From contig JABMQK010000209.1 in NCBI GenBank assembly GCA_013203265.1, positions 1 through 25,009 on the forward strand: 25,009 nt of DNA. Direction: 5' to 3'. A model generated the notes under the pieces. It had not been told where the DNA came from and did no database searches. It saw only the letters and a list, made by a program, of their open reading frames with translations. Position numbers and translations under genes: made by a program. This stretch comes from a bacterium (GTDB lineage Bacteria > Omnitrophota > Gorgyraeia > Velamenicoccales > JABMQK01). Positions 1,385 through 25,009 of this stretch are shown in pieces; position 1 is the first letter of the stretch, and each line of letters opens with the position of its first letter.

Positions 1385-1816
1385 ATGAAGATAGATATAA
1401 TGAGGCTAAAAGAAAACATAGTTGATAATTTTCAGGAATCGTATGATCCTAGAGACCTCGATTTAGACACCAGTGAAGTAAAATACCAAGACAGTATTAA
1501 TATTTCTACAGAAGTAAGAAAAGAGATGCGAGTCCTTTTTGCCAAAACACATTTTAGCGCTACAGTTGAATTGATTTGTTCTCGTTGTCTTAAACAATAT
1601 AGAAATGTGATAGATAGAGATTTTGATATTAAATATCCTTTGGATAAATCAGAACAATTTGTCGATATTACACAAGACATAAGGCAAGAGATTATTTTAG
1701 GTTATCCTGTAAAATTCTTGTGCAAGCCTGATTGTCGTGGACTTTGCCCTAGATGTGGCAAAGATTTAAACAAAGGGGTTTGTGATTGTCAAATGAAGTC
1801 CAAACTTAGCGAATAG
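1385..1816 (+). CDS. yceD: DUF177/YceD family metal-binding protein
   Basis: CSRCL and CKPDCRGLCPRCGKDLNKGVCDC cysteine motifs; canonical position upstream of rpmF. The last ~8 codons overlap the composite repeat. Confidence 0.9.
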   Translation: MKIDIMRLKENIVDNFQESYDPRDLDLDTSEVKYQDSINISTEVRKEMRVLFAKTHFSATVELICSRCLKQYRNVIDRDFDIKYPLDKSEQFVDITQDIRQEIILGYPVKFLCKPDCRGLCPRCGKDLNKGVCDCQMKSKLSE

Positions 1817-2032
1817 GGTGAAGCTAAGTTTGATGTCTGAATTTGACCCCCACACCAATTTTTGTTTAGAATAGAGTGGGATCTGTAAAAATATTCTATA
1901 AATTACGTATGAATCACCATAAACCAAAACAATTTGTAGAATTGGTGTGGGGGTTCAATTCCGACTAACAACTTATGTTTGTCCGCCACAAAATATTGTC
2001 GGACTCCATAAGTTGTGTCGTCATTGAAGGAG
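1788..2032. mobile_element. Composite three-stem palindromic element (MITE/REP-like), copy 1
   Basis: Stem 1 CAAACTTAGC (1801-1810) / GCTAAGTTTG (1823-1832); stem 2 GAATTTGACCCCCACACCAATT (1839-1860) / AATTGGTGTGGGGGTTCAATTC (1940-1961); stem 3 ACAACTTATG (1968-1977) / CATAAGTTGT (2007-2016). Same skeleton recurs at 24272-24501. Mobility is inferred, not shown. Confidence 0.7.
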
Positions 2033-2040
2033 AGTAACTA

Positions 2041-2271
2041 ATGGCTTTACCTAAACGTAGACATTCGGTAGCAAGAGGAAGAAAGCGTCGCACGCATTGG
2101 AAGATAAATTTGCGCCAGACTATTATTTGTCCTCAATGCAAACAAGAAAAGCTGCCGCATCACATCTGTCCATCCTGTGGTTATTATAAAGGCAAAGAGG
2201 TTTTAAAGATTGAGACTGTTGCGGAGAGAAAGAAAAGAAAAGAGAAAAAAAGAGACAAAAGAAAGAAATAA
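2041..2271 (+). CDS. rpmF: 50S ribosomal protein L32, zinc-binding (C+) form with basic C-terminal extension
   Basis: MALPKRRHSVARGRKRRTHW, CPQC and HICPSCGYY; SD AAGGAG at 2027-2032. Confidence 0.97.
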   Translation: MALPKRRHSVARGRKRRTHWKINLRQTIICPQCKQEKLPHHICPSCGYYKGKEVLKIETVAERKKRKEKKRDKRKK

Positions 2272-2304
2272 CTTTTTATTTTCGTAAAAGCTTTTGATAC
2301 ATTC

Positions 2305-2507
2305 GGCGGCGCCAAACCTTACCATTTATGGTGGGGACAAAAGCGCCGCCTCAGTATTCCTTCGACATGCTCAGGATGCTTCGAAGGATGCTGAGCGAAG
2401 CCGAAGCACAACCCTGAGCCCGTTCGACTTTGCTCAGGGCTCAGTCCTGAGCTTAGTCGAAGGACTGAGCAAACTCTGGTTTAGCTCGGGGTGCGTCGAA
2501 AGGGTTG
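2305..2507. repeat. Nested array of REP-like palindromes (TTCGAC-nnn-GCTCAGG ... CCTGAGC-nnn-GTCGAAGG family) preceded by a GC-rich hairpin
   Basis: GGCGGCGC (2305-2312) / GCGCCGCC (2343-2350) encloses CCTTACCAT-tt-ATGGTGGGG. Arms CCTTCGACATGCTCAGG (2359-2375), TGCTGAGCGAAGCCGAAGCA (2389-2408), CCGTTCGACTTTGCTCAGG (2420-2438), TCCTGAGCTTAGTCGAAGGA (2445-2464); CAACCCT (2409-2415) / AGGGTTG (2501-2507). Confidence 0.85.
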
Positions 2508-2584
2508 ATTTTGTATTAATGGTTTTGATTATTTAAGAATTCAAAGAGGATATAAAAAAGAATTGTAAGTTAACGGAGAAGAAG

Positions 2585-23433: not shown

Positions 23434-24303
23434 GTGATTACAATGGTTAAGAAGAGCAACAAATTGAATTTCACAAAATTAGTTGCAAGTGGAAATGATT
23501 TTGTCCTCCTAGATTTAAGAGGTCAAAAAAAGCACTTAAATCTAGGGGCAATTGCGAAGAAACTTTGCAATCGAAAATTAGGGATTGGCGCAGATGGTCT
23601 GCTCGTTTTAGAAAGATCAAAAAGAGCCAATGTTAAAATGCGCATATTCAATCCAGACGGCTCTGAGGCAGAGATGTGCGGTAACGGAGCAAGATGTGTA
23701 GGTTATTTTATAAAAAATACAAAGCCCGCTGTCAAAGGTCAGATTAAAATCAGAACCAAAGCCGGAATCTTAAATGCTCAAGTAAGCAAAAATAATGTAA
23801 GAGTAAATATGACTGATCCCAAGAATATTAGATTAGATTCAGTTGTTAAGTTAAATAAACATTCTCTACGATTTAATTTCATCAACACAGGTGTACCTCA
23901 TACAGTAATTTTATGTGAAGGAATTGAAAGGATAGATGTTGATGCTTTAGGAAGGTTAATTAGATATCACAAGAGATTTAAGCCGAAAGGAACCAATGTG
24001 GATTTTATTGAACCCAGAGCATTAAACAACATTAGAATTAGAACATATGAAAGAGGGGTTGAAGAGGAAACATTAGCTTGTGGCACAGGAGCTGTTGCGG
24101 CAGCGGTTATTTATGTGTTGAAATTAAGGCAGTCTGGTTTAATAAGAGAAAATAAGTTATGTGTAAATGTTGATACAATTTCAGGTGAGATGCTGAAGGT
24201 ATTCTTTAATGTGATTAAAAATAAAATAAAAAATGTCTGGTTAGAAGGAAAAGCAGAGATAATTTGTGAGGGTCAAATGAAGCTCAAACTTATGGAGCGA
24301 TAG
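23434..24303 (+). CDS. dapF: Diaminopimelate epimerase (start GTG 23434 or ATG 23443)
   Basis: GNDF, GIGADG, NPDGSEAEMCGNG, TGVPH, TNVDF, TYERGVEEETLACGTG (both catalytic Cys). The last ~9 codons overlap the composite repeat. Confidence 0.97.
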   Translation: MITMVKKSNKLNFTKLVASGNDFVLLDLRGQKKHLNLGAIAKKLCNRKLGIGADGLLVLERSKRANVKMRIFNPDGSEAEMCGNGARCVGYFIKNTKPAVKGQIKIRTKAGILNAQVSKNNVRVNMTDPKNIRLDSVVKLNKHSLRFNFINTGVPHTVILCEGIERIDVDALGRLIRYHKRFKPKGTNVDFIEPRALNNIRIRTYERGVEEETLACGTGAVAAAVIYVLKLRQSGLIRENKLCVNVDTISGEMLKVFFNVIKNKIKNVWLEGKAEIICEGQMKLKLMER

Positions 24304-24501
24304 CGAACATAAGTTTGTTAGCTGAATTTGACCCCCCACCACTTTTTATTAGACATCGTTCATTAAAAGTGGTGGGGGGTTTAATTCGCACAGTGACTTA
24401 TGTCTTTCGACCACGCTCAGGACATAATCCTGAGTTTATCGAAGGATTATGTTTACTCACTTTGTTCGTTCCATAAGTCACGTGCTCATTAAAAGGGGGA
24501 G
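24272..24501. mobile_element. Composite three-stem palindromic element (MITE/REP-like), copy 2
   Basis: Stem 1 CAAACTTATG (24285-24294) / CATAAGTTTG (24308-24317); stem 2 GAATTTGACCCCCCACCACTTTT (24324-24346) / AAAAGTGGTGGGGGGTTTAATTC (24365-24387); stem 3 GTGACTTATG (24393-24402) / CATAAGTCAC (24472-24481). Same skeleton as 1788-2032. Confidence 0.7.
24404..24446. repeat. REP-like hairpin (TTCGAC...GCTCAGG family) nested in stem 3 of the composite element
   Basis: CTTTCGACCACGCTCAGG-acataa-TCCTGAGTTTATCGAAGGA, flanked on both sides by TTATGT (24398-24403 and 24447-24452). Confidence 0.85.
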
Positions 24502-24505
24502 TGTT

Positions 24506-25009
24506 ATGTCTAAAGTTTTTAAGGGCTCTATGGTTGCAATTGTTACACCTTTTTCCGCCTCTGGCGGAAAAGATTTGGTAGTTGATGAAAAGAAATTAAG
24601 AGAGTTGGTGAAATTTCAAATTGATAATGGCACTAGTGGGATTATTCCTTGTGGGACGACTGGAGAGTCTCCAACTTTAGACTATAATGAGCACGATAAG
24701 GTAATCGAGATTTGTATTGAAGTTGCCAAAGGAAAAATTCCTGTAATCGCTGGAACAGGGTCTAATTCTACTGACGAAGCGATTAGAATAACAAAACATG
24801 CTGCCAAGGCCGGAGCAGATGCATCATTGCAGGTTTCACCATACTATAATAAACCAACGCAGAAAGGTCTATATCTACATTTTAAAGCTATAGCTGATTC
24901 TGTTGATATTCCTATTATTCTTTATAATATTGCCGGACGCACAGGGGTAAATATTGAGCCAGAGACAATGGCAAAACTAGCACAGAATTGTAAAAATATC
25001 GTTGGTGTA
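24506..25009 (+). CDS. dapA: 4-hydroxy-tetrahydrodipicolinate synthase, 5' part (runs off the window; absent from the ORF track)
   Basis: Manual translation: MSKVFKGSMVAIVTPF...PCGTTGESPTL...IAGTGSNST...SPYYNKPTQKG...LYNIAGRTG; SD GGGGAG upstream. Confidence 0.97.
   Translation, partial: MSKVFKGSMVAIVTPFSASGGKDLVVDEKKLRELVKFQIDNGTSGIIPCGTTGESPTLDYNEHDKVIEICIEVAKGKIPVIAGTGSNSTDEAIRITKHAAKAGADASLQVSPYYNKPTQKGLYLHFKAIADSVDIPIILYNIAGRTGVNIEPETMAKLAQNCKNIVGV
24554..24568. repeat. 15-bp palindrome in frame inside dapA (encodes SASGG)
   Basis: TCCGCC-tct-GGCGGA between codons TTT (Phe16) and AAA (Lys). Confidence 0.75.

What the first reader, a model, noticed from the sequence alone, without database searches (positions are those of the whole stretch)
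1788..2032. Three-stem composite element present twice, replacing the junction between two genes (stop codon through SD)
This copy and 24272-24501 share a skeleton in the same orientation: GTCAAATGAAGyyCAAACTTA-[variable]-TAAGTTTG-..CTGAATTTGACCCCC-[variable]-GGGGGTTyAATTC-..ACTTATG-[variable]-CCATAAGT-..TCATTrAArGG. Stems are kept while loops and some paired bases differ (CACACCAATT/AATTGGTGTG versus CCACCACTTTT/AAAAGTGGTGG), which looks compensatory. Both copies start inside the upstream CDS, so two unrelated proteins end in similar peptides: YceD ...CQMKSKLSE* and DapF ...GQMKLKLMER*. Both end in the purine tract that serves as SD for rpmF and dapA. An element carrying its own stop codon and RBS could insert into tightly packed operons without polarity. 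No transposase is present in the window, so mobility is inference.
Basis: partly seen in the sequence, partly recalled or inferred. Interest (0 to 1): 0.78.

Follow-up and report, generated by a model that had tools for sequence, protein, structure and literature searches.

The report
Gene-less copies of nuclease hairpin element
The two look-alike stretches are gene-less copies of a small selfish DNA element of Omnitrophota bacteria: its complete copies carry a tiny GIY-YIG nuclease gene inside the middle hairpin, and it inserts between operon genes just in front of the ribosome-binding site without breaking either gene.

Summary
Window 1788-2026 and 24272-24494 are two copies of a three-hairpin palindromic element. 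The genome is a 1.02 Mb, 71% complete Omnitrophota MAG with at least 64 loci of this family, many at contig ends.

- **Range:** the family was found in 23 of 41 relatives and 27 of 151 sampled Omnitrophota genomes.
- **Stems:** 96% of positions are paired, with many compensatory changes and almost no G·U pairs. The 3' module is roughly the reverse complement of the 5' module.
- **Full-length form:** these members (two complete in this genome, about 17 in relatives) carry an 80-99 aa GIY-YIG nuclease ORF inside the middle hairpin. The window copies lack it.
- **Insertion:** same-family genomes have empty yceD-rpmF and dapF-dapA junctions, where the genes overlap or lie 12 nt apart. Both window copies are therefore insertions. 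They replaced the C-terminal tails of YceD and DapF.
- **Ribosome-binding site:** in the resolved cases the Shine-Dalgarno sequence is the host's own, and the element sits at its 5' edge.
- **Flanking duplications:** 0 to 11 nt, unlike a classical transposase.

The closest known system is the Ssn nuclease with NTS/SRM hairpin repeats (Chenal et al. 2025). Its published repeat pattern is not met here. This scan has reported the same family on other Omnitrophota genomes, and I reached this reading before seeing those notes.

The parts
1788..2026 (+). Copy A, ORF-less three-hairpin element between yceD and rpmF
   Evidence: Alignment with copy B. Boundaries come from empty sites in G003 and G004 and 11 other Omnitrophota. 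Related strains in other metagenomes also carry it.
1788..1847 (+). Copy A 5' module: long hairpin H1 with a tandem G·A/A·G mismatch. It contains the YceD tail codons and the stop TAG at 1814-1816.
   Evidence: nhmmer m5 hit, 52.8 bits; covariation; mismatch spectrum; ORF 1385-1816.
1839..1961 (+). Copy A middle hairpin H2: arms 1839-1861 and 1940-1961 with a 78-nt loop. In full-length members this position holds the GIY-YIG ORF.
   Evidence: Inverted repeat I1; sequence read directly; ORF-bearing homologue at the same junction in G001.
1951..2026 (+). Copy A 3' module: hairpin H3, roughly the reverse complement of the 5' module, with U·C/C·U mismatches on this strand
   Evidence: nhmmer m3 hit, 44.4 bits.
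2027..2043 (+). Host Shine-Dalgarno AAGGAGAG, spacer and rpmF start codon (ATG at 2041). Not part of the element.
   Evidence: The same AAGGAGAG / AAGGAGTG precedes rpmF in the empty sites of G003 and G004.
24272..24494 (+). Copy B, ORF-less three-hairpin element between dapF and dapA
   Evidence: Alignment. All four same-family genomes have an empty site with dapF and dapA overlapping, and both flanks align to it.
24272..24332 (+). Copy B 5' module (H1). It holds the DapF tail codons and the stop TAG at 24301-24303.
   Evidence: nhmmer m5 hit, 49.9 bits; ORF 23434-24303; tail comparison.
24324..24387 (+). Copy B middle hairpin H2: 26-nt arms and a 12-nt loop, of the CCCCCCACCACTTTT type
   Evidence: Inverted repeat I8. 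The same H2 type encloses a GIY-YIG ORF in G005, locus L135.
24377..24494 (+). Copy B 3' module (H3). A small GC-rich hairpin of another repeat family is nested in its loop, at about 24398-24452.
   Evidence: nhmmer m3 hit, 36.8 bits. Inverted repeat I3 links 24402-24434 with 2433-2465.
24495..24508 (+). Host Shine-Dalgarno GGGGGAG, spacer and dapA start codon (ATG at 24506). Not part of the element.
   Evidence: The empty sites read ..CAGGGGGATTGTTATGTCTAA (G002) and similar, so the G-run is ancestral.

Best explanation
Both stretches are ORF-less derivatives of a small mobile cassette of Omnitrophota. This reading favours internal deletion of the ORF.

Anatomy of the full cassette (about 380-460 bp):
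- a 5' hairpin module;
- a middle hairpin whose loop is an 80-99 aa single-domain GIY-YIG nuclease gene. Its start codon directly follows the 5' arm, it has no SD, and its stop overlaps the 3' arm;
- a 3' hairpin module that is roughly the reverse complement of the 5' module.

Shown:
- The family is multi-copy and spread across the phylum.
- The stems are kept as Watson-Crick DNA-type helices.
- The nuclease ORF keeps its catalytic residues.
- Occupied and empty orthologous junctions differ between genera, and even within one genus.
- Insertions sit in co-directional gene junctions, in sense orientation.
- The 3' end sits at the 5' edge of the host Shine-Dalgarno sequence.
- The upstream gene ends on a stop codon inside the 5' module.
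- Overlapping, translationally coupled gene pairs become pairs separated by about 230 nt of hairpins.

Inferred:
- By analogy with Ssn nucleases, the GIY-YIG protein binds the element's hairpins as single-stranded DNA and cuts a few nucleotides 5' of them.
- The G·A-bearing hairpin lies on the top strand at the left end and on the bottom strand at the right end. Such cuts would therefore fall at the two outer boundaries, on opposite strands, and free or copy the element.
- Integration next to the SD, with variable 0-11 nt duplications, would then come from loosely coupled nicks or microhomology repair, not from a fixed-stagger transposase.
- ORF-less copies would be mobilised in trans.
For: - **Copy number and range:** (64 loci, 24 of them within 200 nt of a contig end against 8% expected; 23 of 41 relatives; 27 of 151 in a phylum sample).
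- **Nuclease ORF nested between modules:** in this genome at C130:129-368 and C194:75-350, plus an N-terminal fragment at a contig end (C36:1-90); in about 17 loci of relatives, always ordered 5' module, ORF, 3' module on one strand; and at the very yceD-rpmF junction of G001.
- **Protein family:** Pfam GIY-YIG above cut-off. Tyr, Tyr, Arg, His and Glu are invariant or nearly so across 15 ORFs.
- **H2 types:** the stem types of ORF-less copies match those of ORF-bearing ones, and one ORF-less loop keeps the first roughly 10 nt of the ORF.
- **Empty versus occupied sites:** yceD-rpmF; dapF-dapA; the C93, C18 and C206 junctions; six relative-occupied, G000-empty pairs. G003 is occupied and G004 (same genus) is empty at the C206 junction.
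- **Position rules:**. In 32 of 38 cases an SD core lies 0-6 nt after TCATT, and in 21 of them at one fixed offset.
- **DNA-type stems:** G·U is about 2% of pairs. G·T and A·C mismatches are symmetric, and the tandem G·A is strand-swapped between the two modules.
- **Analogy:** Ssn proteins are roughly 94-aa single-domain GIY-YIG ssDNA nucleases whose genes are flanked by genome-wide hairpin repeats (PMC11893778). The element ORF's only hit in an N. gonorrhoeae chromosome is the NTS-flanked ssnA-like ORF.
Against: - No nuclease activity, excision product or new insertion has been observed.
- Contigs from the source metagenomes show no form that lacks copy A.
- Flanking duplications are inconsistent: 0-1 nt at C93, 3-4 at copy B, 6-7 at C18, 9 at C87 and 11 at C206. 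The genome-wide test for cognate flank similarity is weak (permutation p = 0.026).
- The published SRM repeat pattern is not enriched: 2 matches against 0-3 in shuffles.
- Membership of the ORF in the Ssn clade (cd10448) could not be tested, and identity to the gonococcal protein is only 27-37%.
- An ORF sitting in the loop of a multi-copy hairpin is equally what a homing endonuclease gene invading that loop would give.
- Two Y1-transposase genes are present in the genome.
- The ORF in C194 has no canonical start codon.
Confidence: 0.6

Rival explanations
1. The hairpin element and the nuclease gene are two separate selfish elements. The GIY-YIG gene would be a homing-type invader of the H2 loop, spreading among the many copies of the repeat. 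The three-hairpin repeat itself would be moved by something else, such as host recombination, a Y1/RAYT-type enzyme or replication slippage.
For: - ORF-bearing and ORF-less alleles exist for each H2 stem type. The ORF-less loop looks like the two edges of the ORF region, which is also the picture of an uninvaded target.
- The ORF has no SD and sits wholly within a loop.
- Other small hairpins also nest in the loops of this element.
- Y1-transposase genes exist in the genome.
Against: - In about 17 loci from several genera the ORF is always in the same place and orientation between the same two outer modules.
- Whole ORF-bearing units are present or absent at operon junctions as one piece.
- The protein has no DNA-binding domain of the kind homing enzymes use (80-99 aa).
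- The ORF-less loop retains the ORF's start region.
- No module lies next to the Y1 genes.
Confidence: 0.2
2. A host-serving intercistronic RNA element. The hairpin right after the stop codon and the hairpin right before the SD would act in the mRNA as processing sites, stabilisers or translation insulators, and this would explain the retention of the element.
For: - Sense orientation and exact stop-to-SD placement.
- Long stems of RNase III size, and UUCG/GNRA-like tetraloops in nested hairpins.
- A preprint describes stable structures just downstream of stop codons that govern re-initiation (10.1101/2020.02.10.941153, seen, abstract only).
Against: - G·U pairs are rare, and the mismatch spectrum shows no preference for the transcribed strand.
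- The 3' module is the mirror of the 5' module, which fits DNA palindromy.
- Junctions are occupied in one genus and empty in the next, and most relatives do well with overlapping genes.
- No Rfam family matches.
- A nuclease gene sits in full-length copies.

Secondary effects on mRNA are likely but were not tested.
Confidence: 0.1
3. A REP/BIME-type repeat mobilised by a RAYT (Y1 transposase), with the GIY-YIG gene as an unrelated passenger.
For: - Mosaic, nested, palindromic architecture in intergenic regions.
- Y1_Tnp genes at C187:5093-5425 and C156:273-695.
- The genome holds other REP-like families, according to notes on this window.
Against: - The modules start with GTCAAATGAAG, not with the GTAG or CGTC tags of REPs.
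- Modules are 60 nt or longer, not 20-40 nt.
- No module of this family was catalogued on the two contigs that carry the Y1 genes.
- The gene physically nested in the family is the GIY-YIG one.
Confidence: 0.06

Closest known systems
Ssn nucleases with NTS/SRM hairpin repeats (SsnA of Neisseria meningitidis; Chenal et al. 2025, Nat Commun 16:2388, PMC11893778)
   Same: - A single-domain GIY-YIG protein of about 90 aa.
- The gene is framed by hairpin-forming repeats.
- The same oriented hairpin repeat is scattered in many ORF-less copies, almost all intergenic.
- The layout looks like an insertion sequence.
- The element ORF's only tblastn hit in a gonococcal chromosome is the NTS-flanked ssnA-like ORF.
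   Different: - The published SRM pattern is not present.
- The repeat here is a 160-250 nt composite of three hairpins, and the gene sits inside the middle one.
- Copies occupy operon junctions in sense orientation at the SD edge.
- Presence/absence at orthologous sites is shown here, whereas for Ssn mobility was only hypothesised.
- Ssn clade membership (cd10448) and ssDNA cleavage are untested.
REP / BIME / REPIN elements with RAYT transposases (Enterobacteria, Pseudomonas)
   Same: - Intergenic, mosaic, nested palindromes kept by compensatory change.
- One protein gene flanked by the repeats, with many ORF-less copies.
- A proposed single-strand hairpin substrate.
   Different: - The partner enzyme is GIY-YIG, not a Y1 HUH transposase.
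- There is no GTAG/CGTC tag.
- The units are much longer.
- Placement is strict, from stop codon to SD, between co-directional genes.
Correia elements (Neisseria) and other bacterial MITEs
   Same: - Terminal inverted repeats and a size of 100-250 bp.
- Insertion next to genes, with effects on transcripts.
- ORF-less derivatives outnumber any autonomous form.
   Different: - There is no fixed target duplication (0-11 nt here, against TA for Correia).
- The linked ORF is not a known transposase.
- Orientation is almost always sense to the flanking genes.
Free-standing GIY-YIG homing endonuclease genes (T4 seg genes) and mitochondrial double-hairpin or GC-cluster elements
   Same: - A selfish nuclease gene inserted between conserved genes.
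- It can replace the end of a neighbouring gene.
- Its translation is probably kept low.
- It is associated with mobile hairpins.
   Different: - Seg-type enzymes have a DNA-binding domain and one cognate site.
- Here the protein is the catalytic domain only, and dozens of unrelated junctions are occupied.

Membership tests
Ssn nuclease / SRM repeat system | Single-domain GIY-YIG protein of about 94 aa (under 150 aa) | tested here: met
   PF01541 scores of 68.3, 62.6 and 39.6 bits, all above the cut-off. ORFs are 77-99 aa and the catalytic residues are conserved.
Ssn nuclease / SRM repeat system | Gene flanked on both sides by hairpin-forming inverted repeats | tested here: met
   The 5' module lies upstream and the 3' module downstream on the ORF strand, in the two complete G000 loci and in about 17 loci of relatives.
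Ssn nuclease / SRM repeat system | The same repeat in many further copies in the genome, mostly intergenic | tested here: met
   64 loci in 1.02 Mb, at gene junctions.
Ssn nuclease / SRM repeat system | Repeats fit the published SRM search pattern HGTCWY..YYVSBRH..WNVSBRG..RNCYNB | tested here: not met
   2 matches in the genome, neither in an element, against 0-3 in shuffled genomes. The same script finds 6 matches in the 1.4 kb gonococcal ssnA locus.
Ssn nuclease / SRM repeat system | Protein in CDD family cd10448, or blastp E < 1e-10 with 75% coverage to N. meningitidis SsnA | tested here: inconclusive
   CDD and the Nm protein were not available. tblastn against a gonococcal chromosome hits only the NTS-flanked ssnA-like ORF (E 4e-6, 37% identity, 79% coverage). 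The module-free UPF0213-like ORF of C132 aligns to it almost as well.
Ssn nuclease / SRM repeat system | Site-specific cleavage of single-stranded DNA only, a few nt 5' of the hairpin | not testable with these tools
   Needs purified protein and oligonucleotides.
MITE (miniature derivative of an insertion sequence) | Terminal inverted repeats | tested here: met
   The 3' module is hit by the 5'-module profile on the opposite strand, and the reverse also holds. 36-nt inverted arms were found in copy A.
MITE (miniature derivative of an insertion sequence) | Target-site duplication of fixed length | tested here: not met
   0-1 nt (C93), 3-4 nt (copy B), 6-7 nt (C18), 9 nt (C87) and 11 nt (C206); none is evident for copy A.
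MITE (miniature derivative of an insertion sequence) | Longer relative with the same ends that encodes a transposase | tested here: inconclusive
   A longer relative with the same ends exists, but its only ORF is a GIY-YIG nuclease, which is not a recognised transposase class.
MITE (miniature derivative of an insertion sequence) | Presence/absence at orthologous sites | tested here: met
REP/BIME with RAYT | 20-40 nt palindromes with a conserved GTAG or CGTC head, and a Y1 transposase gene flanked by them | tested here: not met
   Modules are 60 nt or longer and begin with GTCAAATGAAG. The Y1 genes at C187 and C156 have no module of this family on their contigs.
Curated structured RNA family (Rfam 15) | Match to a covariance model at the gathering score | tested here: not met
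   No hit in the window. Only sub-threshold chance hits to miRNA or plastid hairpins in six element loci.

The most novel reading that the evidence does not exclude
The tiny GIY-YIG nuclease is itself the mobilising enzyme of an insertion-sequence-like element that uses single-stranded hairpin ends and integrates specifically at the 5' edge of Shine-Dalgarno sequences. That would be the first direct case for mobility of Ssn-type nuclease-repeat systems. It would also be a new target choice: one that lets a selfish element colonise overlapping, translationally coupled operon genes without polarity.
Probability: 0.35. Interest if true: 0.8.

Novelty: new variant of a known kind. Interest (0 to 1): 0.6.

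Why it matters
How short hairpin repeats (REP, NTS/dRS3, Correia-like and others) multiply in bacterial genomes is an old question. For the Ssn systems described in 2025, mobility was only guessed at.

This family offers the pieces needed to test it. It has complete and gene-less copies in one genome and clean empty and occupied sites among close relatives. It also follows a simple placement rule: the 3' end lies at the SD edge and the upstream gene stops inside the 5' hairpin. This gives a concrete, testable model for the nuclease, with cuts at both outer boundaries on opposite strands.

There are practical consequences too:
- It explains why small Omnitrophota MAGs fragment at these sites.
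- It explains why proteins such as YceD and DapF carry odd shared C-terminal tails in annotation.
- It shows a way in which translationally coupled gene pairs get uncoupled in evolution.

Tried and rejected
- **Rfam search** at gathering and permissive thresholds: nothing meaningful.
- **Conserved mini-ORF** starting at the ATG in GTCAAATGAAG: the frame's length varies from 8 to more than 50 codons between copies, so I rejected it.
- **Kink-turn reading** of the tandem G·A: the bulge is 4 bp away from the G·A pairs, so I rejected it (read directly).
- **RNA-strand signal from G·U versus A·C mismatches:** none found.
- **Fixed target-site duplication:** not found. The permutation test of cognate flanks is only weakly positive (p = 0.026).
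- **Published SRM pattern:** not enriched.
- **Protein remnants of the nuclease in ORF-less loops:** only a roughly 10-nt trace in one H2 type. Nothing was found in the window's copy A loop.
- **Population polymorphism in metagenome contigs:** no joint skips copy A, and contigs cannot show absence.
- **Supplementary files of the Ssn paper:** not held.
- **PDB sequence search:** only a weak UPF0213 hit, E 0.017.
- **Resemblance of empty sites to the joined element ends** (ATTrAAATGAAGA): I considered this a possible att-like target. I could not separate it from the ordinary look of AT-rich gene starts (Met-Lys) with the eight pairs available.
- **Literature searches:** nothing on Omnitrophota repeats, or on MITEs that supply SD or stop codons, describes this family.
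Full report
**1. The observation**

In order it consists of:
- a 5' tag, GTCAAATGAAG;
- a first hairpin, H1;
- the connector CTGAATTTGAC;
- a G/C-clamped middle hairpin, H2, whose arms differ completely between the two copies but stay complementary;
- the connector GTTyAATTC;
- a third hairpin, H3;
- TCATTrAA, followed by a purine tract and a start codon.

The upstream ORFs run into the element, giving YceD ..CDCQMKSKLSE* and DapF ..CEGQMKLKLMER*.

**2. It is a large family**

The window lies in a 1.02 Mb, 210-contig, 36% G+C genome judged 71% complete. Its closest plsX relatives are all Candidatus Omnitrophota MAGs.

BLAST and profile searches with the two end modules give 115 module hits. 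Of these, 88 score 25 bits or more, and they group into 64 loci covering about 0.8% of the assembly. Twenty-four of the 64 loci lie within 200 nt of a contig end, against 8% expected, so the assembly breaks at these repeats and the true number is higher.

The family has variants: full three-hairpin copies, two-hairpin copies, single-hairpin copies, and copies with further small GC hairpins nested in loops.

It is found in 23 of 41 relatives, including all four genomes of the same family. It is also found in 27 of 151 genomes sampled across the phylum at E <= 1e-5. No Rfam family matches.

**3. Anatomy**

The 5' module is one long hairpin. GTCAAATGAAGAC pairs with GTCTGAATTTGAC around a conserved tandem G·A/A·G mismatch, followed by a 2-nt bulge and a 10-12 bp upper stem.

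The 3' module is roughly its reverse complement. It carries U·C/C·U at the matching place on the sense strand, so the G·A version sits on the other strand.

| Module | Copies | Base pairs | Paired | Pairs with double-sided changes |
|---|---|---|---|---|
| 5' module | 22 | 22 | 96.5% | 15 |
| 3' module | 16 | 21 | 96.4% | 13 |

G·U pairs make up only about 2% of the pairs. G·T and A·C mismatches are about equally common. The helices are therefore maintained as Watson-Crick, DNA-type stems with no sign of selection on the transcribed strand alone. Self-correction within palindromes could also produce such compensatory patterns, so the covariation does not prove a function.

**4. The missing gene**

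In the same-family genome G001, the same yceD-rpmF junction holds the element. There the H2 arms enclose a 95-aa ORF with the GIY-YIG signature.

In the window's own genome:
- Pfam GIY-YIG hits above the cut-off lie between a 5' and a 3' module at C130:129-368 (80 aa, complete) and at C194:75-350 (no canonical start codon).
- A fragment at C36:1-90, at a contig end, follows a 5' module.
- A fourth GIY-YIG gene, on C132, resembles UPF0213 proteins and has no modules.

In relatives of the order, about 17 of about 30 GIY-YIG loci show the same order on one strand: 5' module, ORF, 3' module. The start codon follows the 5' arm of H2 with no Shine-Dalgarno sequence, and the stop overlaps the 3' arm.

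The catalytic Tyr, Tyr, Arg, His and Glu are invariant or nearly so in 15 aligned ORFs.

Each H2 stem type seen in ORF-less copies also occurs with an ORF. One example is copy B's type, found with an ORF in G005. One ORF-less loop keeps the first roughly 10 nt of the ORF region.

**5. Insertion, shown by empty sites**

- **yceD-rpmF.** Eleven other Omnitrophota have a 14- or 29-nt overlap or a 3-21 nt spacer, and one more has an unrelated 94-nt repeat spacer. G003 and G004 of the same family read ..TGC CAA GTT AAG TAA AAGGAGAGATAG ATG and a similar sequence, while G001 is occupied.
- **dapF-dapA.** All four same-family genomes have overlapping genes, for example ..TGCCAGGGGGATTGTTATGTCTAA. The window reads ..TGTGAGG[element]GGGGGAGTGTTATGTCTAAAG.
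- **Other junctions of this genome.** C93 is empty in G001-G004, the insertion is precise, and it lies between GGAA and GGAG. C18 is empty in G001-G003, and AGGAGG(T) now stands on both sides. At C206, G001 and G004 are empty and G003 is occupied by a different copy, although G003 and G004 belong to one genus.
- **The reverse pattern.** Six junctions occupied in relatives are 0-25 nt spacers in this genome.

Related strains from other studies' metagenomes (about 96% identical) also carry copy A. No form skipping it was seen, but contigs cannot show absence.

**6. Placement rules**

- Of 51 3' module ends, 38 are followed within 7-14 nt by the start codon of a long ORF on the same strand, and four more sit at contig ends.
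- In 32 of those 38, an SD core begins 0-6 nt after TCATT, and in 21 of them at one fixed offset.
- Of the 23 5' modules with an upstream ORF of 100 aa or more, every stop codon lies between -8 and +36 of the element start. Nine of the 34 modules listed use the TGA or TAA inside the 5' tag (GTCAAATGAAG).

In the three cleanly resolved cases (copy A, copy B and C93), the SD after the element is the one already present in the empty site. The element therefore does not bring an RBS. It lands at the 5' edge of the host's RBS. Copies not followed by a gene lack the purine tract.

Flanking duplications range from 0 to 11 nt. In C206 the 11-nt duplicate preserves both the upstream gene's last codons and the downstream SD with its spacer.

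The insertions turned overlapping gene pairs into pairs about 230 nt apart and replaced the last residues of the upstream proteins.

**7. Mechanism (inference)**

The closest described system is the Ssn family (PMC11893778). Ssn proteins are about 94 aa long and consist of a single GIY-YIG domain. They bind a hairpin repeat only as single-stranded DNA, in one orientation, and cut a few nucleotides 5' of it. Their genes are framed by the repeat, and the repeat is scattered through the genome. The authors noted the IS-like layout but did not show mobility.

The element ORF's only tblastn hit in a gonococcal chromosome (filed among plasmids) is the NTS-flanked ssnA-like ORF.

If the Omnitrophota protein acts alike on the G·A-bearing hairpins, its cuts would fall at the left boundary on the top strand and at the right boundary on the bottom strand. 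That would delimit the element.

A fixed right boundary at the SD with a variable left boundary fits loosely coupled nicks or microhomology repair better than a fixed-stagger transposase. The sense orientation could come from selection, because only this orientation supplies stops and leaves the SD free. It could also come from a strand bias of a single-strand mechanism.

None of these steps has been observed.

**8. Rivals**

- The nuclease gene may be a separate homing-type invader of the H2 loop. The ORF-bearing and ORF-less pattern cannot exclude this, but the constant three-part unit appearing and disappearing as a whole argues against it.
- A host RNA role (insulation, processing or stability) may be a secondary effect. 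It does not explain the mirror symmetry, the near absence of G·U, the patchy occupancy or the nuclease gene.
- A RAYT-driven REP reading fails on the repeat head, on size, and on the lack of linkage to the two Y1 genes.

**9. Comparison and novelty**

The architecture and the protein type match the Ssn/repeat concept. However, the published SRM pattern is not met, and clade membership could not be tested. I therefore file this as a new variant of that kind, not as a member.

What is new relative to the paper:
- the three-hairpin composite with the gene in the middle loop;
- the operon-junction and SD-edge placement;
- the direct occupied/empty evidence.

After I had reached this reading, the scan's notes showed that other agents had described the same family on other Omnitrophota genomes, including an ORF-bearing copy between dapF and dapA in another genome. 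The family is therefore not new to this scan, and I found no paper that describes it.

This window adds three things: the same-family empty sites that fix the boundaries, the finding that the SD is host-derived, and the variable duplication lengths.

Noticed in passing
window 24398-24452 (inside copy B) and 2414-2470: A small GC-rich hairpin of another repeat family (..CTCAGGAC..GTCCTGAG..-like) is nested in the H3 loop of copy B. It is related, in inverted orientation, to units in the rpmF-plsX spacer (inverted repeat I3).
   Followed up: no
window 2294-2536: The rpmF-plsX spacer is filled with nested GC-rich palindromes and gives a spurious 80-aa ORF. Depth spikes in metagenome contigs show that these units are multi-copy too.
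   Followed up: no
window 24315-24476 and 24449-25009: The mechanical ORF list gives a 53-aa ORF inside copy B and starts dapA at 24449. Comparison with relatives puts the dapA start at ATG 24506.
   Followed up: yes
G000 contigs C187:5093-5425 and C156:273-695: Y1 (IS200/RAYT-type) transposase genes are present in the genome. No module of this family was catalogued on those contigs. They may serve the genome's other REP-like families.
   Followed up: partly
G000 C132:2042-2317: A fourth small GIY-YIG gene (91 aa, UPF0213/YhbQ-like) sits in an intergenic position without the modules and is followed by other GC-rich hairpins.
   Followed up: no
L123 (G005) about 1905-2038; L040 about 2694-2789: Two other Omnitrophota have different repeats in the yceD-rpmF spacer. 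G005 has inverted TGTCAAAT/ATTTGACA-rich arms reminiscent of this element's ends. L040 has tandem GTTTGTAA units.
   Followed up: no
G000 C163:2192-2228 versus C36:1995-2029: The same H2 stem carries its loop in either orientation (ATTTTCATAATATT versus TATATTATGAAAAT). This is a flip-flop, as expected from hairpin or cruciform recombination.
   Followed up: no
L158 (NZ_CP119142.1, 'plasmids' collection): Two 2.17 Mb Neisseria gonorrhoeae chromosomes are filed as plasmids in the plasmid collection. Their ssnA-like ORF seems to have a shifted N-terminus relative to the ATG.
   Followed up: no
G000 C63:8859-8935: A single-hairpin version carries the 5' tag and the 3' tag on one perfect 20-bp stem. 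A deletion between the direct-repeat arms of H1 and H3 would produce exactly this, and it still sits right before an SD and a start codon.
   Followed up: no
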